Assembly: GCA_044229245.1 (NCBI GenBank)
Contig: JBGATI010000017.1
Location: 16,830-80,829, forward strand
DNA: 64,000 bases
Direction: 5' to 3'
Source: Gemmatimonadales bacterium
GTDB taxonomy: Bacteria > Gemmatimonadota > Gemmatimonadetes > Gemmatimonadales > GWC2-71-9
The position numbers and the translations under genes were made by a program. Below the pieces are notes generated by a model. The model was not told the origin of the DNA, did not search any database, and worked only from the letters and a program-made list of their open reading frames with translations. This document shows, one piece after another, positions 2-57,372 of the stretch (positions within the stretch are counted from its first letter, which is position 1; every line of letters begins with the position of its first letter).

Positions 2-3000
2 TACCTGGATCAGAAGGTCGCTGACAGCGCAGCGCTTCACCTGAATGCGGCGCTCCGGCTCGTCAGCGCCGGCGCAGACACCGCGGCCAGGAAGCTGCTG
101 CTCCGGAGTCTGGGCATTGCCTACGCGAGGCTCAGTCAGTTCGACTCGGCCGCGACCGCCTTGCGGGTTGGCATCGAGCTCGGCCGCGCGGCTGGCGACA
201 GTGGCTACGTCTCCTCCACCGGCGGCTGGCTCGGCTATGTCGAGGCCCGACGCCATCACACCGCCGCGGCGATCGACGCCTATCGCGCGGCCATCGAGTG
301 GCTCCCCTCGACATCCACCGCACTCTACGCAGGTGCCATGCAGGTAGAGCTCGATCGATTGCTCGTCCGGCAGCGCGGGCTCGACTCCCTGCGCACGGGA
401 TTCGAGATCGTGCGGCCGCTCTACGCCCGGCTTCGGTCAGTGTCCCTGCGGCGCCAGGCGTTTCGCGCGCTGAACGATCTCCTCGAGCTCGAGCTCACCG
501 ATTCGGCGATCGTCCGGTTGAGCGAGCCGCCCCCGCCAGGAGCCGCAAGGCATGATCCCGTGGCGGAGCGTCGCGCGCTGCGTCAGGTCGCCGATCGTTT
601 CATCGACGCGGAGCTCCCCGACAGCGTCGTGGCCCGGCACCGCGCCACCGCCGCGCTCCTCGTCGCGGGTACGGGCTCTCTCGATTCGGCCGCGACGCGC
701 TTCAGGCTGGCAATCACCCAGCTTGGTCCGCAGGGGGACAGCGCCGCAATCTCCGCCGCGAATGCCTGGCTCGCCATCGTGGAGACGGCGCGGAACCGCA
801 ATGACGCCGCGATCGCCGCCTACCGGAATGCCATCCGGCTCTGGCCTTCCACGGCCTCCCCCCGCGAGCTCGCAGGCCTGCACTCGCAAATCGGCCAGCT
901 GCTCGAGAAGGTGGGCGAACTCGACTCGATGCAGGTGCACTACCGGATCGCGATCAACGGGGGCCGGAGCATCTATTCGGATTCGGCGATTGTGGAGCTC
1001 AACCGTGCCCTCGGCCTGGCGACGACGGCCAGGCCCGCCGTGGCGATCCCCGCGCTGCTCAAGGCGGCGGAGCTGATGCAACGCAAAGGCTCCCAGGGCC
1101 TCCACAACCTCGCGCTGCTCCGAGTCGCCATGCTCTACCGTGACGCGGGCCAGCTCGACTCCGCGCTCGCCTACGGCAGGCTCGTGCTCGCGGCCTGGCA
1201 CCGGCTCGGTGTTCCGTCCGAGGAGGCCTCCGCGCTCATGACGGTGTCCGGCATCCACCTGCAGCGGGGCGAATTCGACTCGGCGCTGGTGTATTCCGGT
1301 AGCGGGCTGACGCTGGCTCCTCCCGGCGCACAGAAGCGTCTCCTCGCGACCCTCCACGGCGTGCGCAGCGTCGCCTTCTCCTCGAGCGGGCGCTACGACT
1401 CCGCGCTCGTGAATGCCCGTGGCGCCGTGGCCGCCTGGCGGGATGCTGACAACCCGGAGTCCCTCGCCCGGAGCCTCGGGCATCTCGGCAGCATCTTCAG
1501 CGCGGTGGGACAGTTCGATTCGGCGATCACCTATCATCGCGCCATGCGGGACGCGGCGAAGACACTGTCCCTGGCAAGCGTCGAGACCTCCGCGCTGCAG
1601 CACCTCGCCGGCGACTTCGAATCGGCCGGCGCCATCGACTCGGCGCTCGCCACCTATCGGGCGGCCCGCGACCTCTCCCATTCGATCCCCGATCCCAGGG
1701 GCGAAGCCGCGGCGCTGGAGCGGATCGGCACGCTGCTCACCACCAAGGGCGAGATCGATTCGGCGGCGGCATCGCTCCGGGCCGCGCTGACCACGCTGCT
1801 TGCCGCCGACACCGGCGGCACCACCGCCGACGAACTCAACGATATCGCCTCATTGTACGAACGGACCGGCGACGCCGACTCGGCCCTCGCCTATCGCCGT
1901 CAGGCGAGAGACCTGGCGCGCGCCACCGGCGATCCCTCGTCGCTCGATCTGGCGCTCGTCGCCCTCGGACGCCTCGAGACTGATCGCGGCAATCCGATGG
2001 AGGGGCTCGCCGCACTCCGTGAGGCGCTCGACCGGCAGCGCGGGAACTCCTCCCTGGAGCAGACGGCTGCGATCCTCGGGAACCTCGGCTTCACGCTGCG
2101 CCGCCTCCCCAAGCCCGACCTCGCCGGCGCCCTCGCCGCGTTCGATACCGCCTCCATCTATCGGGCACGCGTGCGCCAGGAGGCCGGCGGCGACGAGAAC
2201 AAGCTCAGCATCGGTGAGCGCTTCACCCTGCCACCGGGGGAGTGGGAGTTCAGTTGGCTGGCGCTCGCGCCGAAGATCGGGGCCGAACCCGCCGCCCTCG
2301 GGGCACTCGCCGCCGGAGAACGGAGCCGGGCGCAGGCGCTGCTCGATCTCATGCGCGGCACGACCAAGGCCGGAAAGCCTGGCACCGACCTGGTCGCCGC
2401 GGGCCGGCGCCTCGTCACCGCCGCCAGCGCGGGCGGCGCCACATTGCTTTCCTATCTCAGCACCGAGGACAGCCTGCTGGTCTGGTATGCCCGGCCCGGT
2501 GCACCGCTCGTCGCCCGGGTGGTGCCGGTCGGGGCCGACTCGCTGGCCCGGCTCGTGGGAAGCTGGCGTCGCGCGCTCGGGGTCGATCATGCCGACGTCG
2601 GCGCGCGGCTCGCGGGGCCGGAGGGGCAGCCGCTCGAGGAGAGGCTGCGGAGCGGCGCAGCCGGCGGCGTCAGTGCCGCGGGCGACCCGACGGCGTTAGG
2701 CGCAGCGCTCTCCGCCATCATTCTCCCCGACGAACTCCGCCGCTCGTCCACCGGCGGGAAGCCGGGCGAGCTGGTGATTGTCAGCAGTGGCCCCCTCACC
2801 GTCATCCCCTTCGGCGCACTGCCGCTCGCGGATCCGGCGGTGGTGCTCGGGGAGCGGTCTGCCATTCGCTACGCCCCCTCGCTCACGAGCCTGGTCGAAG
2901 TGGAGCGCGGGACGCTTCCGCTTACCGCTGCGGCCCGCACGGCGAAGCTCAAGCGATCGCTCGTGGTGGGTGATCCCGCGATGCCGGCACCGCGGAACAG

Positions 3001-3592
3001 TCGCGGCGAACGCGCGACCCTCCCCGCCCTCCCCGCCGCCGCCATCGAGGGCCGCGCCGTGGCGGCGCGGGTCGGCGTCACCGCCCTCACCGGAGCGGCC
3101 GCGAGCGAGCGCACCGTTCGCGAGCGGATGCCGGCCGCACCGCTCATCCACCTCGCCAGCCACGGCTATGCCTACGCCGCGGCAGGCCAGGCGCGGAACT
3201 CCTTCGTCGCCCTCGCCCCAGACTCCACCGACGACGGGCTGCTCACCGTCGGCGAGGTCCTCGACGATCCGCATCTCAGGCTCAGCGCCGATCTCGTCGT
3301 GCTCAGCGCCTGCCAGACCGGCCTCGGCAATCTCAAGCAGGCGGAGGGCACGGTCGGACTGCAGCGCGCCTTCATGGCGCGCGGCGCGCGGAGCCTGCTG
3401 GTGAGTCTGTGGAGTGTGTCGGATGAGGCGACCGCACTGCTGATGCAGCGCTTCTATCAGCACTGGCTCAGGGACCGCGATCAGCCCGCCAAGGCCGAGG
3501 CGCTCCGCCGGGCGCAGGGGGATGTGCGGGGGACGAAGGGCTTCGAGGCGCCACGCTTCTGGGCGCCGTTCCAGCTGGTGGGGGGACGCTAG
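2..3592 (+). CDS. TPR-repeat / CHAT-domain protein (caspase-like protease fold); 5' end runs off the window
   Basis: The frame is open from position 2, so the listed ORF begins at an internal TTG at 161. About a dozen ~40-aa TPR-like units carry G-x-[LFI]-DSA-[LI]-x-x-Y-R. C-terminal CHAT signatures show a putative His/Cys dyad (LIHLASHGYAY ... LVVLSACQTGLG). Confidence 0.85.
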   Translation, partial: YLDQKVADSAALHLNAALRLVSAGADTAARKLLLRSLGIAYARLSQFDSAATALRVGIELGRAAGDSGYVSSTGGWLGYVEARRHHTAAAIDAYRAAIEWLPSTSTALYAGAMQVELDRLLVRQRGLDSLRTGFEIVRPLYARLRSVSLRRQAFRALNDLLELELTDSAIVRLSEPPPPGAARHDPVAERRALRQVADRFIDAELPDSVVARHRATAALLVAGTGSLDSAATRFRLAITQLGPQGDSAAISAANAWLAIVETARNRNDAAIAAYRNAIRLWPSTASPRELAGLHSQIGQLLEKVGELDSMQVHYRIAINGGRSIYSDSAIVELNRALGLATTARPAVAIPALLKAAELMQRKGSQGLHNLALLRVAMLYRDAGQLDSALAYGRLVLAAWHRLGVPSEEASALMTVSGIHLQRGEFDSALVYSGSGLTLAPPGAQKRLLATLHGVRSVAFSSSGRYDSALVNARGAVAAWRDADNPESLARSLGHLGSIFSAVGQFDSAITYHRAMRDAAKTLSLASVETSALQHLAGDFESAGAIDSALATYRAARDLSHSIPDPRGEAAALERIGTLLTTKGEIDSAAASLRAALTTLLAADTGGTTADELNDIASLYERTGDADSALAYRRQARDLARATGDPSSLDLALVALGRLETDRGNPMEGLAALREALDRQRGNSSLEQTAAILGNLGFTLRRLPKPDLAGALAAFDTASIYRARVRQEAGGDENKLSIGERFTLPPGEWEFSWLALAPKIGAEPAALGALAAGERSRAQALLDLMRGTTKAGKPGTDLVAAGRRLVTAASAGGATLLSYLSTEDSLLVWYARPGAPLVARVVPVGADSLARLVGSWRRALGVDHADVGARLAGPEGQPLEERLRSGAAGGVSAAGDPTALGAALSAIILPDELRRSSTGGKPGELVIVSSGPLTVIPFGALPLADPAVVLGERSAIRYAPSLTSLVEVERGTLPLTAAARTAKLKRSLVVGDPAMPAPRNSRGERATLPALPAAAIEGRAVAARVGVTALTGAAASERTVRERMPAAPLIHLASHGYAYAAAGQARNSFVALAPDSTDDGLLTVGEVLDDPHLRLSADLVVLSACQTGLGNLKQAEGTVGLQRAFMARGARSLLVSLWSVSDEATALLMQRFYQHWLRDRDQPAKAEALRRAQGDVRGTKGFEAPRFWAPFQLVGGR

Positions 3593-3628
3593 CGCGGCCG
3601 CGCCCGATTCATCGGGGTGCGATGCCGC

Positions 3629-4291
3629 TCAGTGGCAGCACCCGGGGCCACAGGTGGAGCGCCCGCGAATCCCCTCCACCCCTTCCCGCGCGATGATCGG
3701 CACCATCACCAGTGCCGCGAGCGGATCCGCCCACCACCATCCGAAGAGGGCATTGAGGCAGAGCCCGCCGAGCAGAATGGCGGAGAGATAGGCGCAGAGC
3801 TGGGTCTGCGTGGCCTCGGCCGCGAGTGCTCCGCTCTCGAGCTGAACAGCCAGCCGCCGCTTGCGCCGCGCAAGCCACGGCATGACGAGCAGGGAGAGAA
3901 TGGCGAGCACGATCCCCACCCGGCTCTCCTCCGGCGCCTCACGCAACCAGAGCGACTTCGACGCCTCCAGCAGGACGTACGCCGCCAGCGCCAGGAAGCA
4001 GGCGCCGATGAACCGGAGGCTCCGGTCCTCGACCTTCGCACGGTGCGCCGGATCGGCGTCCGCCGCGAGACGCCACAGGCCGGCGGCGCTCGCGCTGAGT
4101 TCGATCCCGCTGTCGAACCCGAACCCGACCAGCGCGATGCTACCGGCCGCGAGCCCAGCGGCCAGCGCGATCACCGCCTCGAGGCTGTTGTAGCACAGCG
4201 TCACGATCGTGAGCTTGCGGCTCCGCGCGACGAGCACGGAACGCTCCGATGCGCCACTGTCGCGGCTCCCCTGCACCGCCGATCGCTCCAT
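3629..4291 (-). CDS. Short cation-efflux (CDF-like) membrane-domain protein without a cytoplasmic domain
   Basis: ATG at 4291. About 6 hydrophobic helices. SIALVGFGFDSGIELSAS and LCAYLSAILLG resemble the TM2/TM5 regions of short cation-transporter proteins. Ends in the Cys-rich tail TCGPGCCH. Confidence 0.6.
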   Translation of the reverse strand: MERSAVQGSRDSGASERSVLVARSRKLTIVTLCYNSLEAVIALAAGLAAGSIALVGFGFDSGIELSASAAGLWRLAADADPAHRAKVEDRSLRFIGACFLALAAYVLLEASKSLWLREAPEESRVGIVLAILSLLVMPWLARRKRRLAVQLESGALAAEATQTQLCAYLSAILLGGLCLNALFGWWWADPLAALVMVPIIAREGVEGIRGRSTCGPGCCH

Positions 4292-4372
4292 GAATCCGCC
4301 TGGTCAAACTCGCCTGCGAAACTAGCCGCCCCCGATTGCAGGACCGATGAAGATCGGGTGAGGGCGCCGCGA

Positions 4373-4969
4373 TCACCCCTCGTGCGACTCCTTGAATGAC
4401 GGCATCCCCGCCTGGTCCGCACTGACACCGACGATGAGTGCCATCGGCCCCTCCGCAGACGGTGCGGTCCCGCCACGCAGCTCACCCTCCGGGACCGGCT
4501 CGTCGAGCCGGCAGAGATGCAGGGTTCCCGCCGTGCGGAGCGGGAGCGTCACCAGCGTCTCGGTCCCCGGTGTCTCGACCGGCCGCCAGTGACTCATCTC
4601 GGCGTGCGGCGTGGCGATGAGCAGTGAGATGCGGGCCCGCTGCCCCGCGGCGGGCGGCACGAGCCAGTGGAGCGCCTCCTTCGCGTAGGGGTCGTTCGTC
4701 GGGACCTGGACCGGGGCAGCCGCGTGCGGGATGAGAATGTCCGGTCCGCGCGACCAGCCGAGCCGGAAATCCTTGGGACGATGCCATCGGCTCACCGCGG
4801 TATCGACCGTGATCTTCCATCGGCCGGTGGGATAGATGATGAGCCCCACCAGCCCGTTCGCCGCGGCGACGGCAGCGTGCACCTCGTCCTCGTGGGTCCA
4901 GACGCGCCAGAGGCCGGAGCGGGGAGCGTCGGCGGTGCCGAGCGCGAAGCGGTAGACCTTGTTGGCCAT
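4373..4969 (-). CDS. Hypothetical cytoplasmic protein (no family recognised)
   Basis: 198-aa ORF with an ATG start and G/C-ending codons like neighbouring genes. No signal peptide. Confidence 0.6.
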   Translation of the reverse strand: MANKVYRFALGTADAPRSGLWRVWTHEDEVHAAVAAANGLVGLIIYPTGRWKITVDTAVSRWHRPKDFRLGWSRGPDILIPHAAAPVQVPTNDPYAKEALHWLVPPAAGQRARISLLIATPHAEMSHWRPVETPGTETLVTLPLRTAGTLHLCRLDEPVPEGELRGGTAPSAEGPMALIVGVSADQAGMPSFKESHEG

Positions 4970-5070
4970 GGCGTCCTGCGGTGCTGAAGGAGGAGGGCGG
5001 GCACTGCGATGGGGAAAGCTACCCGGGTGGGGGGCCGGGCATCTGGCTCACGGTGCCCGGCCACCCTGCC

Positions 5071-5493
5071 TCAGGGACACTTGCTGCACGGCATGACGAT
5101 GGTGCGGTATTCGAGGGGGGAATTCGCGGCGCCGGGGAGATAGGCCCGGATCGAGCGCGGATCGGAGTAGGTGCCAGGCGTGAGGGGACGGAGAATCCAG
5201 AGCGTCCTGGCTCGGCCCAGGCTGTCGGACAGCACCCGCGATGGCTGGGCGCCCACCGGCCAGCGGCCATCATCCCAGATGATCTCGATGCCGGGCACCG
5301 GCTTGCCGCGATGATCCGTCACCATGGCGATGATCGGCACGCTGTCGCCGGGATTGTGGTTGATCAGGTTCGCGCTGACACCGGTCGGATACCGCAATTG
5401 CATCGCCGGCTGATTGGGTGGTGGCTCGAACGAATTGCATCCGGTCGATGCGAGCAGACCAGCCAATGCCAGCAGCGGCAGGGACTTGGACAT
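5071..5493 (-). CDS. Small lipoprotein, Ig-like beta-sandwich suspected
   Basis: Signal peptide with lipobox LASTGC. VTDHRGKPVPGIEIIWDD resembles Big/invasin-type Ig modules. Ends CSKCP. Confidence 0.7.
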   Translation of the reverse strand: MSKSLPLLALAGLLASTGCNSFEPPPNQPAMQLRYPTGVSANLINHNPGDSVPIIAMVTDHRGKPVPGIEIIWDDGRWPVGAQPSRVLSDSLGRARTLWILRPLTPGTYSDPRSIRAYLPGAANSPLEYRTIVMPCSKCP

Positions 5494-5584
5494 GGCGCCT
5501 CGAGATCGTGGGAAGCACCATCATGCGAAGCGGCACCGCCTCGCGGAAGTAGGGAGCGAAATACGACACCCCGCCTGGCGCCCG

Positions 5585-6079
5585 CTATTCGGGGCTCGTG
5601 TCGATCGCGTTGACGAGGAACAGCCAGGTGACCGCTTCCCCGTCGTAGTGTCCCCCGATGAAGGTCGTGAGCACGGTCATCTCGGTGCCCGTCGTCCCCG
5701 GCTGGGCGAGCGACTCCTCGAGCTGCGCTTGGACGGCGAGCCAGATCGTCGCCGTATCCGCCTTGAAAGCATACTCGTTGGCAAAGGCATCGCGCACGGC
5801 GGGATTCACGCCGAACGCCAGCTGCCAGTGCTCGAGCAGCCCGCGGCGCCCCGCGGTGAGCGGCCGGTGTTCACCGGTGTAGAGCAGCCGGCTGAAGGTC
5901 GGGAAGTCGTCGGCGGACAGCAGCCAGTGGGGTTTCCCGGGTGACCCTTCCGAGGTCAGCTCCTGCTCATGATCGGCCATGATCGCCGGGAGCGAGCCGG
6001 CCTTGTAGCGGCTCCAGTCCTGCGCGGCGGCGGAGACGGGAAGAACCAGGAGCAGCGCGAGCAGAGTGAGTCGGTTCAT
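5585..6079 (-). CDS. Secreted hypothetical protein
   Basis: Type I signal peptide MNRLTLLALLLVLPVSAAAQ. ATG at 6079. Confidence 0.7.
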   Translation of the reverse strand: MNRLTLLALLLVLPVSAAAQDWSRYKAGSLPAIMADHEQELTSEGSPGKPHWLLSADDFPTFSRLLYTGEHRPLTAGRRGLLEHWQLAFGVNPAVRDAFANEYAFKADTATIWLAVQAQLEESLAQPGTTGTEMTVLTTFIGGHYDGEAVTWLFLVNAIDTSPE

Positions 6080-6169
6080 GGCTGAACACGCTCCGTGATC
6101 GGAAGGAGGCGCCGGCCGGCGACAAAGAGATCGGACGCCGCGCTGCTGCGATCGGGTGGCCCGGCGAGG

Positions 6170-6640
6170 CTAGGTCATCCGCTGGGGGTTCCAGGTGTGT
6201 GTCTCATCGCGGACATGCTTCGCCCATGCGTAGAGGGCATCGTACACGACGAAGCCGTGGCGCAGCTGTTCGTGATCGTCGGCAAAGAGGCGCGAGAGCC
6301 CGAGCGAGATGGCCAGCAGACCGGCCGCCTGCGGCGCAAGGTCGAGCCGCGCGGTGTCGGCCCCACGCACGATGACGGCCAGTTCGGCGAGGGCGGGATC
6401 GGTGAGCCGGTATTTCGCCAGCAGGGCATCAAACGAGCAGAGGGGGCCATCGTGGGAGAGCTCGACACCCTCCACATCGAACGGAGTGGCACCGAGAGAC
6501 TCGGCGAGCCGTATCACCTCGGTGGGCGGGGCGAAGAGAAACTCGGCGTCCGTATCGATGAACCGGGCGATGAGCCAGGGGCAGGCCACGCGGTCGATCT
6601 TGGGGCGTTCGCGGGTGATCCATTTCATGAGGTCCCCCAT
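6170..6640 (-). CDS. ChrB C-terminal-domain-like protein (chromate-resistance-protein family), stand-alone
   Basis: WITRERPKIDRVACPWLIARFID matches my memory of the ChrB_C signature. The start could instead be the ATG at 6628 (MKWITR). Confidence 0.6.
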   Translation of the reverse strand: MGDLMKWITRERPKIDRVACPWLIARFIDTDAEFLFAPPTEVIRLAESLGATPFDVEGVELSHDGPLCSFDALLAKYRLTDPALAELAVIVRGADTARLDLAPQAAGLLAISLGLSRLFADDHEQLRHGFVVYDALYAWAKHVRDETHTWNPQRMT

Positions 6641-6809
6641 AGGACGGGAGGGAGTCGGGGCGGGGGCTGCCGGAGAAGGTACGCGAGGGACGGCGCCGCG
6701 CCATCCGGAGGACCGTCCCGTTCCGTTACACCGATCGGGTTCGGGGGTCGTTCACCCTCGTTTCATGGCCACCATCCTATACTTGCCGGTGCCTCAATCA
6801 GGAGGACAT

Positions 6810-7211
6810 ATGCGCATCGGGATTCTGCCTCGCCTCGCCATGCTCGGCGCGCTGCTCGCAGCCTGCAGCGACAGCGCCAACGTCATCGGTCCGAGCAATC
6901 AGCTCCAGGTCACCAACGCCACCGACGACTTCCAGTTCCAGGTCTCGAACCTCGCCAGCGTGCAACAGACGCTGCGCTACACCTGGACCAACACCGGGGA
7001 CAGCGCGAGCATCAACCAGGCCTCCGCCATCACGGGAGGCACGGCGACCCTGACGATCAAGGACCCCGCTGGGACTGTTGTCTACCAGTCGCCGCTGACT
7101 ACGAATGGCACCTTCCATTCGATCAAGGCGACCACCGGGGCGTGGCGCATCGAGGTGAAGCTCGCGAACACCGACGGCACGGTGAATTTCCGGGTGCAGA
7201 AGGCGCCGTAG
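6810..7211 (+). CDS. Small lipoprotein, unknown function
   Basis: GGAGG (6801-6805) sits 4 nt before the ATG at 6810. Lipobox LLAAC. The listed 300-aa ORF from 6309 is an upstream extension antisense to the ChrB-like gene. Confidence 0.75.
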   Translation: MRIGILPRLAMLGALLAACSDSANVIGPSNQLQVTNATDDFQFQVSNLASVQQTLRYTWTNTGDSASINQASAITGGTATLTIKDPAGTVVYQSPLTTNGTFHSIKATTGAWRIEVKLANTDGTVNFRVQKAP

Positions 7212-7241
7212 CAGTCCGTAGACCTATCCTCGAGTGGCCTG

Positions 7242-7721
7242 CTAGACGGACAGGTCGCGCTTGGCGATCGGGCGGAGTTCCTCGATCGCCGCGACAACGA
7301 GGTCTCTGTCGGCGGCCACTTCCTCGGGCAGATCCAGCCCGTACTTCGGGTCATCCAGGTCGGAGACCAGTTTCGACAATCTTGCCGCGGCCTCTTCACT
7401 CATCAGGAACGTCCCGATCACCGCCGCGCGGCGGATGCCGTCCCGGCCTTCCTTGGAGCTCCGGCCCAGTTCGGCCATCCGTTCCTCGCTGAATCTCACC
7501 CCCTCCTCGATCTTCTGAAGCAGGTGCTCCGCGTAGGTCTTCACGTGATACAGCGATTCGAAGATCTCCGAATAGGCCGCCGCCTTCCGCTCCCACCACT
7601 TCTCGGAGCGGAATCGGCGCAGCGCCAGCCGCACGGATACGAGCGCCGTGATCAAGCCAGTGGCAACGCTCACGATCAGCGAGGGGAGCAAAGTGGTGAA
7701 CATCGTGTCCAACTGGGGCAT
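7242..7721 (-). CDS. N-terminally membrane-anchored helical protein, unknown function
   Basis: One TM helix (LLPSLIVSVATGLITALVSV) followed by a charged helical domain. Visibly less GC-rich than its neighbours. An alternative ATG lies at 7703. Confidence 0.6.
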   Translation of the reverse strand: MPQLDTMFTTLLPSLIVSVATGLITALVSVRLALRRFRSEKWWERKAAAYSEIFESLYHVKTYAEHLLQKIEEGVRFSEERMAELGRSSKEGRDGIRRAAVIGTFLMSEEAAARLSKLVSDLDDPKYGLDLPEEVAADRDLVVAAIEELRPIAKRDLSV

Positions 7722-7734
7722 CCGGCTCTCTCAG

Positions 7735-7765
7735 TGTTGCAACATGGCCACGCTGTGAATCACAG
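7735..7765. promoter_or_regulatory. Two perfect palindromes (TGTTGCAACA 7735-7744; CTGTGAATCACAG 7753-7765) in the divergent promoter region upstream of the ZIP transporter
   Basis: Read directly from the sequence. They lie about 100 nt upstream of the ZIP ATG. No known Zur/Fur consensus match is claimed. Confidence 0.25.
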
Positions 7766-7861
7766 GATGATATAGAGGAGGGGTGTGACAGTCTTTCCGC
7801 TCCTGCCCCATTCCCCACCATATTCCTCCCGCCGAGAGCCGCTCCCCATACCCCGCGCGCC

Positions 7862-8587
7862 ATGCCCGAGCTGTCCGCCATCCTTCTCTTTGCCCTCATC
7901 CCGGTGGTCGCCGTCGCCGCGGGCGCGACCTTCGCCGCCTTCTTCCCGCCGGGACGGGTATTCCGGAGCACCATCCAGCACTTCGCCGCCGGCGTGGTCT
8001 TCTCAGTGGTCGCCGTGGAACTCCTCCCCGGCGTCCGGCTCGGCCACGACCCGCTCGAGGTCGGCTGGACCTTCGCCGCCGGCGTCGCCGTGATGCTCCT
8101 GCTCCAGGCCTTCGGCCAGCGGATCGAGGCGGCGCACGCCGCGAAGGGGAAGAGCGATGCGCCCTCGATCGGCTCCTTCGTGGCGATCGCCATCGACGTC
8201 ACGATCGACGGACTCCTCATCGGCATCGCCTTCGCCGCCGGGAGCAAGGAGGGATTGCTGCTCACCCTCGCCCTCACGCTGGAGATGCTCTCGCTCGGCC
8301 TCTCGATGGCGGTCGAACTCCGCGCCCTGAAACGGTGGAAGATCGTGGCCATCCCCACCGGCATCGCCCTGCTGCTGCTGCTGGGGGCCCTCGCCGGCGG
8401 CACGATCCTCCGCGGCGCCTCCATCCACACCATCGCCGGGGTACTCTCCTTCGGCTGCGCCGCGCTGCTCTACCTCGTCGTGGAGGAGCTGATGGTGGAA
8501 GCGCACGAGAACGCCGAGACGCCGTTCGCCACCGGCATGTTCTTCGTGGGCTTCCTGATCTTCTTGTTGCTCGGCATGGTGGTCTGA
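7862..8587 (+). CDS. ZIP-family divalent metal transporter
   Basis: 241 aa and about 8 TM helices. HFAAGVVFSVVAVELLPG and the C-terminal LVVEELMVEAHE are typical of ZupT-like ZIP proteins. Confidence 0.85.
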   Translation: MPELSAILLFALIPVVAVAAGATFAAFFPPGRVFRSTIQHFAAGVVFSVVAVELLPGVRLGHDPLEVGWTFAAGVAVMLLLQAFGQRIEAAHAAKGKSDAPSIGSFVAIAIDVTIDGLLIGIAFAAGSKEGLLLTLALTLEMLSLGLSMAVELRALKRWKIVAIPTGIALLLLLGALAGGTILRGASIHTIAGVLSFGCAALLYLVVEELMVEAHENAETPFATGMFFVGFLIFLLLGMVV

Positions 8588-8648
8588 GGCGGCAGCTCCC
8601 GGGGAATAGCATGCCACCCGCCCCGACCCGTAGATCACCCGAAACCAG

Positions 8649-9047
8649 GACCGGTGCACGCCGCGCAAATGCCGGCGCACTCATCTCAAGGACCGGAGTT
8701 CTCAGTGCGAAGCCGTGCGCAGTCGTTTTGAACCCATGCGGACTCATCTCGAACCCATGCGCACTCATCTCAAACGCCGGTGCACTCCGCGGAAATGTTG
8801 GCGAACTCCGCTCGAATGACGGCGGACTCGCTGTGAAGGGCGGCGCACTCACGTCAAACCCCGGCGGACTCATCTCGAACGCCGGCGCACCCCGCGGAAA
8901 TGCTGGCGGACTCGTTGCGAACGGCGGCGAACGCATGTCGAGCGGGGGCGCAGCCATTTCCGGCGGCGGCGCACCGCCCGTGAACCGCTGACTACGCTCC
9001 GGGAAGGCGTGACCACGCTCCGCGAATGCCGGAGCATCCCTGTCTCC
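8649..9047. repeat. Array of 19 head-to-tail, diverged 21-bp direct repeats (consensus nnnnGGCGsACTCnnnkCrAA), strictly in register
   Basis: Units counted by hand: 8649-8669, 8670-8690 ... 9027-9047. Column 6 is G in 19/19, column 10 is A in 18/19 and column 13 is C in 18/19. Columns 1-4 and 14-18 are almost free. The array fills the ZIP/GH57 intergenic region. Confidence 0.85.
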
Positions 9048-9118
9048 CCCCGGTCCAGCGACCGGGAGACCCCGACTCCTTCTCCCCCGCCGCGTTGCCT
9101 TCGCGTACCTTTCCCGCC

Positions 9119-11065
9119 ATGCCTAATCCCATCCGCTTCGTCTTCGGCGTCCACCTGCACCAGCCGGTGGGCAACTTCGACTCCGTCTTCCAGCAGCATC
9201 TCGACGACGTGTACCGCCCGCTCCTCGAGAAGGTGGACGAGCGCGACTTCCTGCCGATCGTGCTCCACCTTTCCGGCCCCCTGCTCGAATGGCTGGAGAA
9301 GCACGACGGCGCCTACCTCGACCTGCTCGGCCGGCTGGCGACGGACGGCAAGGTGGAACTGCTCTGCGCCGGGATGTACGAGCCGGTGCTCGCCGCCCTC
9401 CCCCGGCGCGACCGCGTGGAACAGATCGGCTGGCTCCGCGACGCGATCGCCCGCCGCTTCGGCGTCAACGCGACCGGGCTCTGGCTCACCGAGCGGGTCT
9501 GGGAACCGGAGCTCGCCGCCGACTTGGTGGATGCCGGCGTCCGCTACGCCCTCGTCGACGACCGCCACTTCCTGGTCACCGGCTTCCGCCGCGACGACCT
9601 GCACGTCCCCTACATCACCGAAAGCGATGGGCGCCAGCTCGCGCTCTTCCCGATCGACGAGAAGCTCCGCTACCTGACCCCCTTCCGCCCGCCCGCGGAA
9701 TCGGCCGCCTACCTCCGCGAGCTCCGCGCCCGCGGCAAGGCGCTCGCCGTCCTCGCCGACGACGGCGAGAAGTTCGGCGGCTGGCCCGGCACCAAGAAGT
9801 GGGTCTACGAGGAGGGGTGGCTCGACCAGTTCATCACCGCCATCTCCGCCCTGGTGGATGGCGGCGAGGTGCTGCTCACCACGCTGAGCGAGTCGCTCGC
9901 CTCTGTACCATCGGGCGGCATCGCGTACCTCCCGACCGCCTCCTACCGCGAGATGGAGGGCTGGGCGCTGCCGCCGGAGCCGGCCCGGCGATTGATCGCA
10001 TTGGAGAAGGAGCTCGGCGAGGAGCGGCTCGCGAGCCCGGAGGGCGCGCTGATCCGCGGGGCGCACTGGCGCAACTTCATGGTGAAGTACGCCGAGGCAA
10101 ACCGGATGCACAAGAAGATGGCGGCCCTTTCCGCGCTCTGTCGCGCCGCCGGCGATCCCCCCGAGGCGCGCCGCGCAATCGGCCGAGCGCAGTGCAACGA
10201 CGCCTACTGGCACGGCGTCTTCGGCGGGCTCTATCTCCCCCACCTCCGCGACCACGTCTGGTACGAACTCGCCGGCGCGGAGGCGATTCTCCGTGAGGGG
10301 GAGGAGCCAGCGTGGGAGATGCGCGACATCGACTGCGACGGCCACGAGGAGCTCTGGATCCACGACGGGACCTTCTCCGCCATCCTGAGTCCGGCGCGGG
10401 GCGGCGTGATCGAGGAGTGGACGGTGTTCGAGCACCGGATCAACTACGCCAATACCCTCACCCGACGCCGCGAGGCGTACCACGAGCCGGACACCGCGCA
10501 TGGGGCCCGCGTCAGCCATCACGACGAGACCGGCACAGCGAGTGTGCGCGATTACGAGGACCTCAAGCAGCGAAACGAGCTGCCCCCGATCGACCCGGAG
10601 CCGCGCGCCCTGATCCGCGAGCGGCTGATCGGCGCCGAAGTGGATGAGGGGATGAACTACCGGAGCGACTTCGATCCGCTCTGGAGCGTGTCAGGCGCCC
10701 GGCTCGAGATGAACGTGACGAAGGAGGCAAACGGCGTCGGCGTGAGCTTTCGCGCGGTCGAGGCGGGGGTGACGGTCTTCGAGAAGCGCTACCACTTCAT
10801 CTCCGGGGGCGGGCTCGTCGCCGAGTACCTCTGGAACGCCGCCGCGCTCGGAGGGCACGGTCTCTTCGCCCCCGAGGTGAGCTACTCCGGGCCGATGGAG
10901 ATCACCTGCACCCCGGCGACCGGGGTGTGGAGCTACGACATCGCGACGGTCGCCAAGTCGGAGAAGGAGATCGAGACGACGATCCAGGGCCGCGCGGTGA
11001 CCCCGCTCTGGCCGGTGACCGTCGGCGAGGCGCGAATCGAGATCCGGACCTCCGGCCGGTCGTGA
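9119..11065 (+). CDS. GH57-family alpha-glucan enzyme (alpha-amylase / 4-alpha-glucanotransferase-like)
   Basis: The N-terminus MPNPIRFVFGVHLHQPVGNF and WLTERVWEPEL are GH57 signatures. The start is set at the ATG at 9119; the listed ORF start at 9026 lies inside the repeat array. Confidence 0.85.
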   Translation: MPNPIRFVFGVHLHQPVGNFDSVFQQHLDDVYRPLLEKVDERDFLPIVLHLSGPLLEWLEKHDGAYLDLLGRLATDGKVELLCAGMYEPVLAALPRRDRVEQIGWLRDAIARRFGVNATGLWLTERVWEPELAADLVDAGVRYALVDDRHFLVTGFRRDDLHVPYITESDGRQLALFPIDEKLRYLTPFRPPAESAAYLRELRARGKALAVLADDGEKFGGWPGTKKWVYEEGWLDQFITAISALVDGGEVLLTTLSESLASVPSGGIAYLPTASYREMEGWALPPEPARRLIALEKELGEERLASPEGALIRGAHWRNFMVKYAEANRMHKKMAALSALCRAAGDPPEARRAIGRAQCNDAYWHGVFGGLYLPHLRDHVWYELAGAEAILREGEEPAWEMRDIDCDGHEELWIHDGTFSAILSPARGGVIEEWTVFEHRINYANTLTRRREAYHEPDTAHGARVSHHDETGTASVRDYEDLKQRNELPPIDPEPRALIRERLIGAEVDEGMNYRSDFDPLWSVSGARLEMNVTKEANGVGVSFRAVEAGVTVFEKRYHFISGGGLVAEYLWNAAALGGHGLFAPEVSYSGPMEITCTPATGVWSYDIATVAKSEKEIETTIQGRAVTPLWPVTVGEARIEIRTSGRS

Positions 11066-12369
11066 CCGGGCCGTATACTCCGGGTAGCTGGCGGGCGCGC
11101 TTCCGCTGGCCGGCGCGGCTCGCCTACGTCCTGGTCCTCCTCTTCGCCACGCTGCAGCCGTTCTACCCCGACACGACCACCGCCAACATCATGGCGCGGA
11201 TCGAGCGGGCACTGCACCCCGAGTTCGGCGGCGCCGACGTGGTGGACGCGGCGCGGAATCTCCTGCTCTTCGGCGGCTGGGGCGTCATCTGGGCGCTCAC
11301 CGCCGCGGGCAGCGCCCGCCGCACCATTCTCCGCGCCACCGGCACCGGCTTCTGCATCAGCGTCTTCGTGGAGACGCTGCAGCTCTTTTCCTGGAACCGG
11401 AATACCTCGCTCCTGGACGTCAGCACCAACACTCTCGGCGCGCTCGGCGGCTCGCTCGCGCTGATCATGCTGATCGCCTTCACCCGCCAGCAGCGCGAGG
11501 GGAAGACCCTGCTCGGCGTGCCGGCGCTGGTCTTCGCGGGCAGCTACGTCGTCGCGGTCTGCCTCGAGGCGCTGATCCCCCTCTTCTGGCACCAGACGCT
11601 GCCCGGCGCGTACGGCTGGCCGCTCGAGCGTTTCCGGGTGAGCCTCGCCGCGTTCCACTGGAGTTCGCTGCTGAGTTCCACGGTGAGCGACTTCCCGATC
11701 TTCCTCCCGGCCGGGCTCTTCGCGGTCGCCGCCGCGGCCGAGCTGGGCCTCGATCCCCGCACCGTGTTCCGCCGGGTGGCACCGGCCGGCGTGGCCCTCG
11801 TCACCGGCATCGAGCTGCTGCACGGCTTCCTCGGCATGGAGATGCTCGCCGGCTCGGTCGTGCTCCGCTCCGCCGCGATCGTGTCCGGTGCCTGGCTGGG
11901 GACGCGCCTGCTGCCGCCCATCATCGGCACCCCTGCGACGCCCGAGCGCGCCCGTCGCTTCCTGACCGGCTACGCGCTCCTCGTCGCGGCCTGGGCCTGG
12001 CGCCCCTTCCTTCCGGATCTGTCCGCGGCATCAATCCACTACAAGCTCGGTCAGCCCTGGTACATCCCGCTCGCGTCGTCCGAGTATCAGCTCGATCTCC
12101 TGAGCGTCGTGCTGGTCTGCGCGCCTTTCTTCCTGTATCTGCCGCTGGGTGCGTTGCTCGCGGCGTGGCCGCTCCGGCGCCGCGGTCTCCTCGCGGGGCC
12201 GGGACCGGCGGTCCTGCTCGCGCTGTTCCTCGAGACGATGCAGCTGGTGGTGCGGGAGCGTCAGCCCGACGTGACCGACTTTCTGGTGGCGGCGAGCGGG
12301 GCGATCATCGGCTGGGCGATCGTGCGGCGGGCAGGCTACGAGGGAGTGCTGCCGAGGAGGGACGGCTAG
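11062..12369 (+). CDS. Polytopic membrane protein with two VanZ-like modules
   Basis: The GTG at 11062 overlaps the GH57 TGA (GTGA). VETLQLFSWNRNTSLLDVSTNTLGALGG and LETMQLVVRERQPDVTDFLVAASGAIIG are VanZ-like. Confidence 0.7.
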   Translation: MTGPYTPGSWRARFRWPARLAYVLVLLFATLQPFYPDTTTANIMARIERALHPEFGGADVVDAARNLLLFGGWGVIWALTAAGSARRTILRATGTGFCISVFVETLQLFSWNRNTSLLDVSTNTLGALGGSLALIMLIAFTRQQREGKTLLGVPALVFAGSYVVAVCLEALIPLFWHQTLPGAYGWPLERFRVSLAAFHWSSLLSSTVSDFPIFLPAGLFAVAAAAELGLDPRTVFRRVAPAGVALVTGIELLHGFLGMEMLAGSVVLRSAAIVSGAWLGTRLLPPIIGTPATPERARRFLTGYALLVAAWAWRPFLPDLSAASIHYKLGQPWYIPLASSEYQLDLLSVVLVCAPFFLYLPLGALLAAWPLRRRGLLAGPGPAVLLALFLETMQLVVRERQPDVTDFLVAASGAIIGWAIVRRAGYEGVLPRRDG

Positions 12370-54465: not shown

Positions 54466-54552
54466 TGATGGACTCCTCTATCCGTTGAACCCGGCCCCCA
54501 TGGCTCGGGTGCACGACGTTACCCATCCGAGGCCCCGGATCCGGTCTCGGTA

Positions 54553-55818
54553 GTGCAACGAACTGGTAAAACCGGCCGGATTCGGCCGGAGACAGGCCCG
54601 CCAGAGGAGCCGGTGCGACCGATCAAGGTTGACCCCCCTTCCTTTAGGCGGCATCATCCACCCGTGGCGACGACCGCGAAAAGCCCCGCTCCCCCCGTGA
54701 GCGGCCCGGTTCCGGAAGGGACCGACCTCACCGAAACCCCTCCTGTCGACGAGCACCGGGAGTCCGCCGTTGCGGCGGGACTCCGGTACGTCACCGACTC
54801 GATGCCGGGGATCCGGCGCAAACGCGTCGGCCGGGGCGTGTCCTACCTTCGCCCCGACGGCTCCCGGGTCAAGGACCCGGCGACACTCAAGCGGATCCGC
54901 GGCCTGGTGATCCCGCCCGCCTGGACCGATGTGTGGATCTGTCCCTTCTCCGAGGGGCACATCCAGGTCACCGCCCGCGATGCCAAGGGACGCAAGCAAT
55001 ATCGCTATCACCCCCGGTATCGCGCCGTCCGGGACGAGACCAAGTTCGGCCGGATGCTCGAGTTCAGCGAACTGCTGCCGGGCATCCGTGAACATCTCGA
55101 GCACGATCTCGCGCTCACCGGCCTTCCCCGCCCCAAGCTGCTCGCCACCGTCGTGTGGCTGCTCGAGCGCACCTTCATCCGCGTCGGCAACGACGAATAC
55201 GCCCGGGACAACCGCTCCTACGGGCTCACCACGATGCGGCGCCGGCACCTGACGGTCTCCGGGTCGCGGATGGATTTCGAGTTCCGCGGCAAGAGCGGCG
55301 TGAAGCACGCGCTCTCGGTCACCGACCGCCGCATCGCCCGCATCGTCCAGCACTGCCAGTCGCTCCCCGGCGAGGAGCTGTTCCAGTATCTGGATGAGGA
55401 TGGGAAGCGGCAGTCGGTGGACTCGGGGGACATCAACGAGTATCTGCGGACGATCAGCGGGCGGGAGGTCACGGCGAAGGACTTCCGCACCTGGGCCGGG
55501 ACGATGCTCGCCGCCAACGCGCTCTGCAAGCTGGGCCCGGCGCCGAACGACAAGCAGGCCAAGGCGAACATCGTCGCGGCGGTGGATGAGGTGGCCAAGC
55601 GGCTGGGCAATACCCGTGCGGTCTGCCGCAAGTACTACGTGCATCCGGTGATCATCGAGGCTTACCTCCAGGGACAGGTGCCGCCGATTCCCCCCGAGCC
55701 GCCGACCCCCTCCCGCGATCACCCGTCGGCCAAGATTCGCCGCGACGAGGCGATCGTGCTGAACTTCATTCAGACGTGGGGGAAGGACTCGCCGGCGCCT
55801 GCCTCAACTGAATCCTAG
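54553..55818 (+). CDS. Type IB DNA topoisomerase (bacterial poxvirus-like TopIB)
   Basis: LRYVTDSMPGIRR, IPPAWTDVWI, RDAKGRKQYRYH, FRGKSGVKH, KDFRTWAGT and the catalytic-Tyr context CRKYYVHP. The true start is probably an internal GTG (54664 or 54697). Confidence 0.85.
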   Translation: MQRTGKTGRIRPETGPPEEPVRPIKVDPPSFRRHHPPVATTAKSPAPPVSGPVPEGTDLTETPPVDEHRESAVAAGLRYVTDSMPGIRRKRVGRGVSYLRPDGSRVKDPATLKRIRGLVIPPAWTDVWICPFSEGHIQVTARDAKGRKQYRYHPRYRAVRDETKFGRMLEFSELLPGIREHLEHDLALTGLPRPKLLATVVWLLERTFIRVGNDEYARDNRSYGLTTMRRRHLTVSGSRMDFEFRGKSGVKHALSVTDRRIARIVQHCQSLPGEELFQYLDEDGKRQSVDSGDINEYLRTISGREVTAKDFRTWAGTMLAANALCKLGPAPNDKQAKANIVAAVDEVAKRLGNTRAVCRKYYVHPVIIEAYLQGQVPPIPPEPPTPSRDHPSAKIRRDEAIVLNFIQTWGKDSPAPASTES

Positions 55819-55922
55819 GGCGCTCGCCCTGCGCGATCCCTCCCGGCGCTCGGCCTGCGCGATTCCACCCGGGGCTCGCCCTGCGCGATCCCTCCCGGCG
55901 CTCGGCCTCGCGGTGCTACAGA
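55819..55922. repeat. Four tandem 26-bp units (or 2 x 52 bp) starting 1 nt after the TopIB stop
   Basis: Units are 55819-55844, 55845-55870, 55871-55896 and 55897-55922. Units 1 and 3 match 25/26. An inverted partial copy (CGCGCAGGGC, 55961-55970) follows. Confidence 0.8.
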
Positions 55923-55989
55923 GGATTCCGCGGCTGCGAGGCCACGCGCCTCCCGGGACCCGCGCAGGGCTCGCAGCGAGAACCTTGCG

Positions 55990-56074
55990 CTACGCACTAC
56001 TCACTACGCACTAAGTACTAAGTACTAAGTACTAAGTACTAAGTACTAAGTACTCGGAACCCGGAACCCCGGAA
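55990..56074. repeat. Heptanucleotide tract: CTACGCA CTACTCA CTACGCA, (CTAAGTA)x6, then CTCGGAA CCCGGAA CCCCGGAA
   Basis: Read directly from the sequence. The core 56011-56052 is six perfect CTAAGTA copies, 71 % A+T in a very GC-rich genome. Confidence 0.9.
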
Positions 56075-56078
56075 CCCT

Positions 56079-57278: not shown

Positions 57279-57340
57279 GGGTGGCGGGAAGTATGCGCCC
57301 GGATTGGGGACCCGGCTAGCGACCAGGAGCCGGGAGTCGG

Positions 57341-57372
57341 GGTGCAGCGACTTGAGCCAGCGCGTGCGGTTC
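57341..57372 (-). promoter_or_regulatory. GGTGCAGCGA plus a degenerate second copy (CGTGCGGTTC) 22 bp away, upstream of the MFS gene
   Basis: The 10-mer recurs in the sites at 63183-63215, and its 3' 9 nt also in the second repeat at 61187-61215. The second half-site matches only about 5/10. Confidence 0.3.

What the first reader, a model, noticed from the sequence alone, without database searches (positions are those of the whole stretch)
8649..9047. Intergenic region built from 19 phase-locked, diverged 21-bp repeats
Most of the 531-bp gap between the ZIP transporter and the GH57 gene consists of 19 head-to-tail 21-bp units. They never lose register over 399 bp, although copies differ at roughly a third of positions. 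Conservation is strongly column-specific. Column 6 is G in 19/19, column 10 is A in 18/19, column 13 is C in 18/19, column 8 is G in 17/19, column 20 is A in 17/19 and column 11 is C in 16/19. Columns 1-4 and 14-18 are nearly free. That looks like selection on a bipartite motif (GGCGsACTC ... rAA) rather than recent slippage. 21 bp is two turns of B-DNA, so every core would face the same side of the helix. Two ORFs cross the array (8611/8335..8991 + and 8274..8957 -) and read as heptad peptides. In both frames the two best-conserved columns (10 and 13) fall on codon position 3 and force A/T-ending codons (GCA, AGT) that real genes here avoid. The minus ORF also closes only 313 nt inside the ZIP gene. 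The array has no spacers, so it is not a CRISPR array. I know of no described element with this architecture. Candidate roles are an iteron-like or cooperative protein-binding array, a nucleoid-protein loading site, or a structured or repetitive RNA.
Basis: seen in the sequence. Interest (0 to 1): 0.7.

Follow-up and report, generated by a model that had tools for sequence, protein, structure and literature searches.

The report
Old, drifting non-coding 21-bp tandem repeat
The gap between a zinc-transporter gene and a starch-enzyme gene in this Gemmatimonadales genome is filled by a real 21-bp tandem repeat, but it does not code for protein, occurs only in one narrow lineage and mutates at close to the neutral rate, so it is most likely an ordinary ageing bacterial minisatellite and not a new regulatory device.

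Summary
Weaker units extend the array to about 8586 and 9068.

It is not a gene. GC content is flat across codon positions, the implied codons are rare here, no homologous protein family exists, and both peptide readings differ at 19% of residues between two strains whose ZIP proteins differ at 1%. It matches no Rfam family and folds no better than shuffled sequence. The motif is not dispersed elsewhere in the window.

The array occurs only in a narrow Gemmatimonadales clade (GH57 at least 92% identical). It is absent from 80+ more distant GH57 loci, where the spacer is short.

A full orthologous allele (L214) aligns without gaps and has the same 19 units. It carries 40 substitutions in 399 bp (10.0%). 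Other spacers on the same contig show 5.2% and third codon positions 13.8%. The substitutions do not avoid the "conserved" columns (p=0.31). A third lineage (L116) has remodelled the interior.

Best reading: an old, lineage-restricted, non-coding minisatellite drifting almost neutrally. A weakly selected protein-binding or RNA array is not excluded, but nothing positively supports it.

The parts
7862..8587 (+). ZIP-family metal transporter gene, the upstream neighbour
   Evidence: ORF. Weak Pfam Zip match, below Pfam's cutoff. 2252 homologues, those named by their sources called ZIP family zinc transporter. GC by codon position 0.67/0.48/0.86.
8586..8648 (+). Three degenerate leading units in the same 21-bp register
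   Evidence: Register listing. Lag-21 identity is still 0.55-0.58 for windows starting at 8581-8621.
8649..9047 (+). Core array of 19 x 21 bp, consensus CGCCGGCGCACTCATCTCGAA. The last five units (8943-9047) are the most decayed.
   Evidence: PWM scores fall from 17-25 to 7-14 at the 3' edge.
8738..8952 (+). Higher-order duplication of a 5-unit (105-bp) block inside the array
   Evidence: TRF period 105, 2.0 copies, 77% matches. Unit matrix: units 6/7/8 resemble units 11/12/13 (17, 19 and 15 of 21).
8611..8991 (+). Spurious ORF (heptad reading N-A-G-A-L-I-S)
   Evidence: Flat GC by codon position. GCA is 9/20 Ala codons here against 5.3% in real genes. No homologue at E<=10. No Pfam or NCBIfam hit. 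24/126 residues differ and the stop codon is lost in allele L214.
8274..8957 (-). Spurious antisense ORF (heptad reading S-A-P-A-F-E-M) that runs 314 nt into ZIP
   Evidence: AGT is 10/13 Ser codons here against 5.4% in real genes. 23/123 residues differ in L214. Its only database matches are unrelated heptad-repeat proteins.
9042..9070 (+). G+C-rich hairpin directly after the array, with no U tract
   Evidence: -16.7 kcal/mol, z=-1.6. L116 has a G+C-rich hairpin in the corresponding place.
9119..11065 (+). GH57 alpha-amylase/4-alpha-glucanotransferase gene, the downstream neighbour
   Evidence: Pfam Glyco_hydro_57, AmyA-A_glucT_m and AmyA-gluTrfs_C. 595 relatives in Gemmatimonadota genomes.

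Best explanation
The ZIP-GH57 spacer is an old, lineage-restricted, non-coding minisatellite.

How it arose (inferred). A 21-bp unit was amplified by slipped-strand mispairing or unequal recombination, including at least one 5-unit block duplication. This happened in the ancestor of a narrow Gemmatimonadales clade, at a spot where gene order upstream of GH57 had been rearranged.

What it does now (partly shown). In the window lineage the array has stopped turning over and decays by point substitution at close to the neutral rate. In a sister lineage it was re-amplified as a 42-bp higher-order repeat. It probably has no sequence-specific function. At most it is a passive spacer that is transcribed by read-through between ZIP and GH57.

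The apparent bipartite motif is mainly what is left of the founder unit in columns that, through shared ancestry among the units, have taken few hits.

Shown here: non-coding status, restricted distribution, stable copy number, near-neutral rate, no column bias in orthologues. Inferred: the amplification mechanism and the lack of function.
For: 1. Non-coding.
- GC by codon position is 0.65-0.67 in every frame, against about 0.68/0.50/0.87 in the window's genes.
- The implied codons are rare in real genes here.
- There is no protein family or homologue.
- Both peptide readings differ at 19% of residues between two alleles, while ZIP differs at 3/241.

2. Restricted distribution.
- Of 80 GH57 loci from species-representative genomes, only L001 has the array.
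- ZIP is next to GH57 in none of the others.
- Relatives at 84%, 77% and 74% GH57 identity that were inspected (L208, L209, L003-L006) have at most about 180 bp between GH57 and a divergent upstream gene.
- A ZIP relative at 86% identity (L202) has no clear array.

3. Near-neutral drift.
- Allele L214 aligns without gaps and has the same 19 units.
- The array shows 40/399 = 10.0% substitutions. Other spacers show 5.2% (Fisher p=0.003), codon position 3 shows 13.8%, and positions 1+2 show 2.7%.
- Three independent assemblies (L201, L215, L216) confirm the first 123-210 bp of this allele.

4. No protection of the motif.
- 12/152 substitutions fall in 'conserved' columns and 28/247 in the others (p=0.31).
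- Columns 10, 11, 20 and 21 are all hit.
- After a genealogical correction, column heterogeneity gives p=0.15 for the window alone.

5. Minisatellite anatomy.
- The edges are degenerate and the centre is fresher.
- The window has a 105-bp higher-order repeat.
- L116 has a 42-bp higher-order repeat. Its interior does not align with the window's although the terminal units are orthologous.

6. No hallmarks of function.
- The motif is not dispersed in the window (3 PWM hits against about 5 in shuffles).
- There is no Rfam match and no excess RNA stability (z +0.77 and +0.49).
- No Rep, Par or DNA-binding gene was found among the ten flanking ORFs scanned (161-12366); four gave no Pfam match.
- Nothing similar exists on plasmids or phages.
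- Another spacer in the same window (55819-56077) is also packed with tandem repeats.
Against: - Register is perfect across 19-23 units and across two alleles. With 1 indel per 15-38 substitutions, as seen in other non-coding DNA here, P(no indel) is 0.05-0.3 for the 46 orthologous substitutions. It is 0.0025-0.09 for the roughly 90 substitution events on the unit genealogy. This is mildly surprising under pure neutrality.
- Raw column counts are overdispersed. With L116 added, the genealogy-corrected test reaches p=0.02-0.07.
- Columns 6 and 13 took no orthologous substitution.
- L116 keeps the same period and the GCAC(T/C)C...TCGAA columns after remodelling.
- The array is slightly slower than third codon positions (p=0.045).
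- Only one complete orthologous allele was available, so power to detect weak selection spread over 19 redundant sites is low.
- No expression or binding data exist.
Confidence: 0.6

Rival explanations
1. A cooperative protein-binding array on DNA, iteron-like or a loading platform for a nucleoid protein. One site sits every two helical turns, all on one face and in one orientation. An unidentified protein recognises GG.G.AC.C......AA. Selection per site is weak because the 19 sites are redundant.
For: - The period of 21 bp is exact, with no indels in 19-23 units or between alleles.
- Raw column counts are overdispersed, and the core columns are shared with the remodelled L116 array.
- The number of units with an intact core is similar in the two alleles (12 and 11).
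- The array persists in lineages that differ in the downstream gene.
Against: - Orthologous substitutions do not spare the core columns (p=0.31).
- The array evolves twice as fast as other spacers.
- There are no single sites elsewhere in 64 kb.
- No Rep, Par or DNA-binding gene was found among the ten flanking ORFs scanned, four of which gave no Pfam match.
- There is no plasmid or phage relative.
- It is absent from every GH57 relative examined at 84% identity or below.
- Within-unit palindromy is barely above background (55/76 against 42-50 of 64-72).
Confidence: 0.17
2. A repetitive, largely unstructured RNA. It would be the ZIP 3' UTR, the GH57 leader or a separate transcript, and its 19 copies of GCACUC...CGAA would titrate or recruit an RNA-binding protein, in the manner of CsrB/RsmZ sponges.
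For: - The array has the same orientation as both flanking genes, and no terminator lies between ZIP and the array.
- A hairpin closes the array at 9042-9070, and L116 has a hairpin in the corresponding place.
- GH57 lost its ancestral upstream region: homology with L116 starts only 9 bp before the ATG. Transcription through the array is therefore plausible.
- The + strand folds less stably than shuffles, as expected for an accessible repeat RNA.
Against: - There is no Rfam family.
- There is no hairpin-per-unit structure or covariation. Pairing of neighbouring units is 69%, against a 60-66% background.
- GGA motifs are at chance level (10 against 7.2 +/- 2.3).
- The substitution rate is near neutral with no column bias.
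- The distribution is narrow.
- There is no transcription evidence of any kind.
Confidence: 0.1
3. A real or recently decayed gene for a heptad-repeat protein, read either on the + strand (N-A-G-A-L-I-S) or on the - strand (S-A-P-A-F-E-M).
For: - The period of 21 bp equals 7 codons.
- Two frames are open in both alleles.
- The + ORF fits inside the gap and starts with an ATG.
- The minus-frame peptide scores against 53 proteins in the representative library.
Against: - GC content is flat across codon positions.
- GCA and AGT are used at 45% and 77%, against about 5% in real genes.
- Orthologous substitutions fall 12/10/18 on positions 3/1/2 of the + frame.
- Amino-acid divergence between alleles is 19%, against about 1% for ZIP, and the + frame stop is lost in L214.
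- There is no homologue for the + ORF.
- The minus-frame hits inspected (11 of the 53, including the nine best) are unrelated repeat proteins, the long ones looking eukaryotic (AHNAK-, mucin-, Sec31-like by my reading), or ORFs laid over other 21-bp repeats. These are periodicity artefacts.
- The minus ORF overlaps ZIP by 314 nt.
Confidence: 0.03

Closest known systems
Bacterial non-coding minisatellites / VNTR loci (for example MIRU-type loci and the MLVA markers of G+C-rich Xanthomonas and Ralstonia; PMC4860299, PMC2884548)
   Same: Head-to-tail units of tens of bp in an intergenic spacer. Higher-order block duplications, degenerate edges, a lineage-restricted presence, and remodelling between related lineages (L116 against the window).
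   Different: The units are unusually diverged (about 55-60% pairwise identity). Copy number is identical in two strains about 7% apart. This makes it a 'fossil' array, not a hypervariable typing locus.
Plasmid and phage iterons (17-22-bp direct repeats bound by Rep initiators)
   Same: Unit length of about two helical turns, direct orientation and a partly conserved core.
   Different: There are 19 units instead of about 3-7. No rep gene or AT-rich unwinding element lies nearby, the context is chromosomal housekeeping genes, nothing similar is found on plasmids, and there is no evidence of selection on the core.
Centromere-like repeat arrays of plasmid partition systems (parC of R1, sopC of F, tubC)
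   Same: Many tandem direct repeats that, in those systems, are coated cooperatively by one adaptor protein.
   Different: No ParA/ParM/TubZ or adaptor gene was found among the ten flanking ORFs scanned (four gave no Pfam match). The unit sequence is unrelated. The array lies in a spacer between two co-oriented metabolic/transport genes.
CsrB/RsmZ-type protein-sponge RNAs
   Same: Hundreds of nucleotides carrying about 20 copies of a short motif.
   Different: There are no GGA-in-loop hairpins, no predicted structure, no Rfam hit and no evidence of a separate transcript.
CRISPR arrays
   Same: Short repeats at a regular period.
   Different: There are no spacers and no cas genes were noted nearby. 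The repeats are contiguous and diverged.

Membership tests
Bacterial non-coding minisatellite (tandem repeat, unit 10-100 bp) | Contiguous head-to-tail copies of one unit | tested here: met
   19 units in register, lag-21 identity 0.61 against 0.32 background.
Bacterial non-coding minisatellite (tandem repeat, unit 10-100 bp) | Not protein-coding | tested here: met
   Flat GC by codon position, rare codons, no homologues, 19% amino-acid divergence between alleles.
Bacterial non-coding minisatellite (tandem repeat, unit 10-100 bp) | Growth by unit or block duplication, with turnover between lineages | tested here: met
   105-bp higher-order repeat in the window and 42-bp higher-order repeat in L116. 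The interiors are not alignable although the terminal units are orthologous.
Bacterial non-coding minisatellite (tandem repeat, unit 10-100 bp) | Copy-number polymorphism among close strains (the VNTR property) | tested here: not met
   The window and L214 have the same 19 units in an ungapped alignment. Only the more distant L116 differs, and its total count is unknown because the contig ends inside the array.
Bacterial non-coding minisatellite (tandem repeat, unit 10-100 bp) | Sequence evolves without site-specific constraint | tested here: met
   10.0% divergence against 5.2% in other spacers and 13.8% at codon position 3. Column bias p=0.31. Power is limited to one allele pair.
Iterons of a replication origin | Adjacent initiator (rep) gene and an AT-rich unwinding region on a plasmid, phage or secondary replicon | tested here: not met
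   Neighbours are CHAT-TPR, cation efflux, ChrB_C, ZIP, GH57 and VanZ. Array GC is 0.66. No plasmid or phage match.
Iterons of a replication origin | Direct repeats of 17-22 bp with a conserved core | tested here: inconclusive
   The period and raw counts fit, but the core is not protected in the orthologous comparison.
Partition-site (centromere-like) repeat array | Linked partition NTPase and adaptor genes | tested here: not met
   None among the ten ORFs scanned between 161 and 12366; four of these ORFs have no Pfam match. The rest of the window was not scanned with Pfam.
CRISPR array | Repeats separated by unique spacers of similar length | tested here: not met
   Units are contiguous.
CsrB/RsmZ-type sponge RNA | Many GGA motifs presented in hairpin loops; member of an Rfam family | tested here: not met
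   GGA count 10 against 7.2 +/- 2.3. MFE z-score +0.77. No Rfam hit.
Heptad-repeat protein gene | Codon-position signature and purifying selection on the peptide | tested here: not met
Heptad-repeat protein gene | Homologous proteins in relatives | tested here: not met
   The + ORF has none. The minus ORF matches only unrelated periodic proteins. Pfam and NCBIfam give nothing.

The most novel reading that the evidence does not exclude
The array is a functional platform of about 19 weakly selected, redundant sites in strict two-turn phase. An as yet unknown Gemmatimonadales DNA- or RNA-binding protein would coat it, for example to insulate or co-regulate ZIP and GH57 or to organise the local nucleoid. 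It would be renewed from time to time by re-amplification of good units, as in L116. That would explain the indel-free register and the persistence of the GCAC.C...CGAA columns despite fast drift.
Probability: 0.12. Interest if true: 0.6.

Novelty: new member of a known kind. Interest (0 to 1): 0.15.

Why it matters
If the main reading holds, this is a cautionary example. A long, phase-locked repeat with striking column-specific counts can arise from the genealogy of duplicated units alone. The test that separates selection from history is an orthologous allele, not the paralogous units. It also shows that two-allele strain mixtures in MAGs can mimic 'perfect conservation'. Only if the minority reading were true, a protein- or RNA-binding array in strict helical phase, would it point to an undescribed chromosomal regulatory or architectural device in a poorly studied phylum.

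Tried and rejected
1. Rfam at E<=10 over 8300-9400 gave only a chance miRNA hit.

2. The sigma-70 promoter and intrinsic terminator scan found nothing useful.

3. Dispersed core motif or PWM sites in the window were at chance level.

4. RNA folding of both strands was no more stable than shuffles. A hairpin-per-unit or palindrome model was barely above background.

5. The + ORF against 5.8 billion proteins gave no hit. The minus ORF against 1.84 billion representatives gave 53 hits, all periodicity artefacts to unrelated heptad-repeat proteins. One was traced to a 50% G+C, 622-kb contig with a different 21-bp repeat. Pfam and NCBIfam gave nothing.

6. blastn against plasmids and phages gave nothing. 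A viral-contig pattern scan gave two unrelated 3-unit repeats.

7. The metagenome pattern scan was poorly designed. Only L116 is truly related. L151 and L120 share little beyond the forced columns.

8. I first read the 818-bp stretch of L001 that is identical to the window as possible selection or recombination. I rejected this when L214, from the same MAG, showed a second allele that is 10% diverged.

9. The apparent faint remnant array after ZIP in L202 has lag-21 identity of only 0.37, so it is not convincing.

10. I did not compute intrinsic DNA curvature, because I could not vouch for wedge parameters recalled from memory.

11. Literature searches for 21-bp intergenic repeat elements gave nothing specific.

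Full report
**1. Observation**

Column 6 is G in 19/19, column 10 is A in 18/19, column 13 is C in 18/19, column 8 is G in 17/19, column 20 is A in 17/19 and column 11 is C in 16/19. Overall, 31% of positions depart from the consensus CGCCGGCGCACTCATCTCGAA.

Identity at lag 21 is 0.61, against 0.32 +/- 0.044 for 200-bp windows across the 64 kb. Harmonics appear at lags 42 and 63. A pattern built from the seven best columns over three units hits seven times, all inside the array, and never in 100 shuffles.

Tandem Repeats Finder detects only the fresher parts and a 105-bp period. Three decayed units lead in from the ZIP stop codon and one follows the array, so essentially the whole 531-bp spacer derives from the repeat. 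ZIP ends at 8587 and the GH57 gene starts at 9119.

**2. It is not a gene**

- Genes in this window have GC of about 0.68/0.50/0.87 at codon positions 1/2/3. The array has 0.65-0.67 in all three frames.
- The + frame would use GCA for 9 of 20 Ala codons, and the - frame AGT for 10 of 13 Ser codons. Each is about 5% of its family in real genes here.
- The + ORF has no homologue at E<=10 among 5.8 billion proteins. Neither ORF hits Pfam or NCBIfam.
- The minus-frame peptide does score against 53 proteins in the 1.84-billion representative library. The hits are AHNAK-, mucin- and Sec31-like repeat proteins, plus ORFs laid over other 21-bp repeats. One lies on a 50% G+C, gene-poor 622-kb contig. 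These are matches of periodicity, not of descent.
- Between two alleles the two readings differ at 24/126 and 23/123 residues and the + frame stop is lost. ZIP differs at 3/241.

**3. No sign of a structured or known RNA, and no dispersed sites**

- Rfam gives nothing.
- The minimum free energies of both strands are slightly worse than shuffles, with z of +0.77 and +0.49.
- Pairing between columns 5-8 and columns 1-4 of the same, next or other units is 60-72%, with no clear preference.
- GGA motifs are at chance level.
- The core motif and a 21-bp PWM find no excess of sites elsewhere in the window.
- Nothing similar exists in the plasmid or phage collections.
- The neighbours are ordinary chromosomal genes: CHAT-TPR, cation efflux, ChrB_C, ZIP, then GH57 and VanZ-like.

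**4. Distribution**

The organism is a Gemmatimonadales bacterium.

- Of 80 GH57 loci from species-representative genomes, only L001 (98% protein identity) has the array. No other locus has PWM clusters or lag-21 periodicity of this kind, and ZIP is adjacent to GH57 in none of them.
- In relatives at 84%, 77% and 74% identity, GH57 is preceded by a short spacer and a divergent gene.
- ZIP homologues at 64% identity or below sit in other contexts. One is beside TraG/ArsR/CzcB-type genes.
- A ZIP relative at 86% identity has no convincing array downstream.
- One metagenome contig, L116, has a GH57 N-terminus that is 96% identical in protein and 92% in DNA. It carries at least 10 units of the same family, and its last units are orthologous to window units 18-19. 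Its interior is organised as a 42-bp higher-order repeat that does not align unit for unit with the window.
- In L116 a 355-residue metalloprotease-like lipoprotein gene lies between the array and GH57. L207 and L213 are of this type.

The element is therefore young on a phylogenetic scale. It sits at a rearrangement point upstream of GH57 and can be remodelled.

**5. The decisive comparison**

The cluster listing showed further members. One of them led to L214, contig JBGASX010000122.1 of the same MAG that yielded L001. L214 carries ZIP, the whole spacer and the start of GH57.

L214 aligns to window 8588-9186 without a single gap and with 46 substitutions:

| Segment | Substitutions | Rate |
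|---|---|---|
| Lead-in 8588-8648 | 6/61 | 9.8% |
| Array 8649-9047 | 40/399 | 10.0% |
| Post-array and GH57 start 9048-9186 | 0/139 | 0% |

Three independent Logan assemblies (L201, L215, L216) show the same substitutions over their first 123-210 bp, so the allele is real.

Calibration on the same contig:

| Site class | Substitutions | Rate |
|---|---|---|
| Third codon positions, nine genes | 319/2319 | 13.8% |
| Codon positions 1+2 | 123/4637 | 2.7% |
| Eight other spacers | 38/726 | 5.2% |

The array is thus twice as divergent as ordinary spacers (p=0.003) and only slightly slower than third positions (p=0.045).

The per-column substitution counts are [1,0,1,2,2,0,2,1,6,2,2,4,0,2,3,2,1,1,3,2,3]. 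The eight 'conserved' columns took 12 hits in 152 sites and the other thirteen took 28 in 247 (p=0.31). Columns 10, 11, 20 and 21 were all hit, and only columns 2, 6 and 13 escaped. By position in the open frames the hits fall 12/10/18, the opposite of a coding pattern. Copy number is unchanged. Units with an intact core number 12 in the window and 11 in L214.

**6. Re-reading two earlier impressions**

(a) L001 is identical to the window over 818 bp (8384-9201), while the rest of that contig is 92-95% identical. Because L214 from the same MAG carries the diverged allele over the same stretch, this is a second haplotype or a chimeric contig end in a strain mixture. It is not evidence of purifying selection.

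(b) The column-specific conservation among paralogous units partly reflects shared history. The unit matrix shows subfamilies ({5,6,11}, {1,7,12,16}, {9,13}, {2,10,14}) and a 5-unit block duplication. Counting changes by parsimony on a unit tree gives heterogeneity of p=0.15 for the window alone and p=0.02-0.07 with L116 added.

**7. What remains unexplained**

Register is perfect. In other non-coding DNA between these strains I counted 1 indel per 15-38 substitutions. That gives P(no indel) of 0.05-0.3 for the orthologous comparison and 0.0025-0.09 for the roughly 90 events on the unit genealogy.

Together with the persistence of the period and of GCAC(T/C)C...TCGAA in the remodelled L116 array, this keeps a weakly selected, redundant binding array alive as a minority hypothesis. 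Such an array could act on DNA or on a read-through RNA. A G+C-rich hairpin at 9042-9070 closes the array, and L116 has a G+C-rich hairpin in the corresponding place. No terminator separates ZIP from the array. Homology of the GH57 upstream region with L116 begins only 9 bp before the ATG. Transcription through the array is therefore plausible but untested.

**8. Verdict**

The best-supported explanation is an old, lineage-restricted, non-coding minisatellite that now drifts almost neutrally (confidence 0.6).

| Rival explanation | Confidence |
|---|---|
| Cooperative DNA-binding array | 0.17 |
| Repeat RNA | 0.10 |
| Heptad-repeat gene or pseudogene | 0.03 |

It is a new member of a known kind of sequence, and interest is low (0.15). 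The most novel reading still open is a phase-locked binding platform, with a probability of about 0.12.

Noticed in passing
window 55819-56077: The 260-bp spacer between two convergent genes (54469-55818 + and 56079-57617 -) consists almost entirely of tandem repeats. There is a 26-bp unit x3.7, then heptamers CTACGCA x3.4, ACTAAGT x6.4 (29% G+C in a 68.5% G+C genome) and CGGAACC x3. This genome seems prone to repeat-filled spacers.
   Followed up: partly
L076 8941-9178: Downstream of GH57 in a distant Gemmatimonadales MAG there are about 15-20 heptamers (ACGAGAA/GAGACGG), a 35-bp gap, and then about 9 copies of CGCTTCT. The latter is the reverse complement of the GAGAAGC register, so the two arrays form a long inverted repeat made of heptamer repeats.
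   Followed up: no
L001 1-862 and L214 7011-8335 (contigs JBGASX010000117.1 and JBGASX010000122.1 of GCA_044229445.1): Two contigs of one MAG overlap across the ZIP-GH57 spacer and carry different alleles. One is identical to the window and the other is 10% diverged. This points to a strain mixture or chimeric contig ends, and it mimics 'perfect conservation' in a single-contig comparison.
   Followed up: yes
window 9048-9201: Both L214 (aligned to 9186) and L001 (to 9201) are identical to the window over the 71 bp after the array and the start of GH57. Flanking sequence differs by 5-10%. This may be a short recombination tract, or constraint on the GH57 promoter and 5' end.
   Followed up: partly
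L116 500-1567 (minus strand); also L207 2-736 and L213 156-1187: In a sister lineage a 355-residue lipoprotein-like protein with an HExxH-type motif (HETGHAMGLGH) is encoded between the array and GH57. It is absent from the window, so there is a gene-sized indel exactly at the 3' boundary of the array.
   Followed up: partly
window 3629-8587; L205 1-6735: The block upstream of the array (cation-efflux, ChrB_C, ZIP) is syntenic with GH57 only in this clade. A 63%-identical ZIP homologue elsewhere sits among TraG-, HTH_17-, ArsR- and CzcB-type genes. This hints that the metal-handling block may have arrived as a mobile islet.
   Followed up: partly
Two unit families recur on about 7 contigs each. 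TGTCCGCGGACGCACGATCAA lies, in L168, inside an ORF matching a 2-oxoacid dehydrogenase E2, so it is probably coding there. CCTCCGCGTACACGCGCAAAA occurs as 5-16 units, in the contigs checked beside FG-GAP (L130), VWA (L125) and SpoIIE (L108) genes.
   Followed up: partly
window 7862-8587 (tool behaviour): The exact look-up of the window's ZIP product reported 'not on record'. Yet cluster member P0295 is identical to it, and P0298 is identical to the window's GH57. Both are listed on an NCBI contig of 121,841 bp, presumably the same one and the source of the window. My DNA reference included the stop codon, which may explain the miss.
   Followed up: partly
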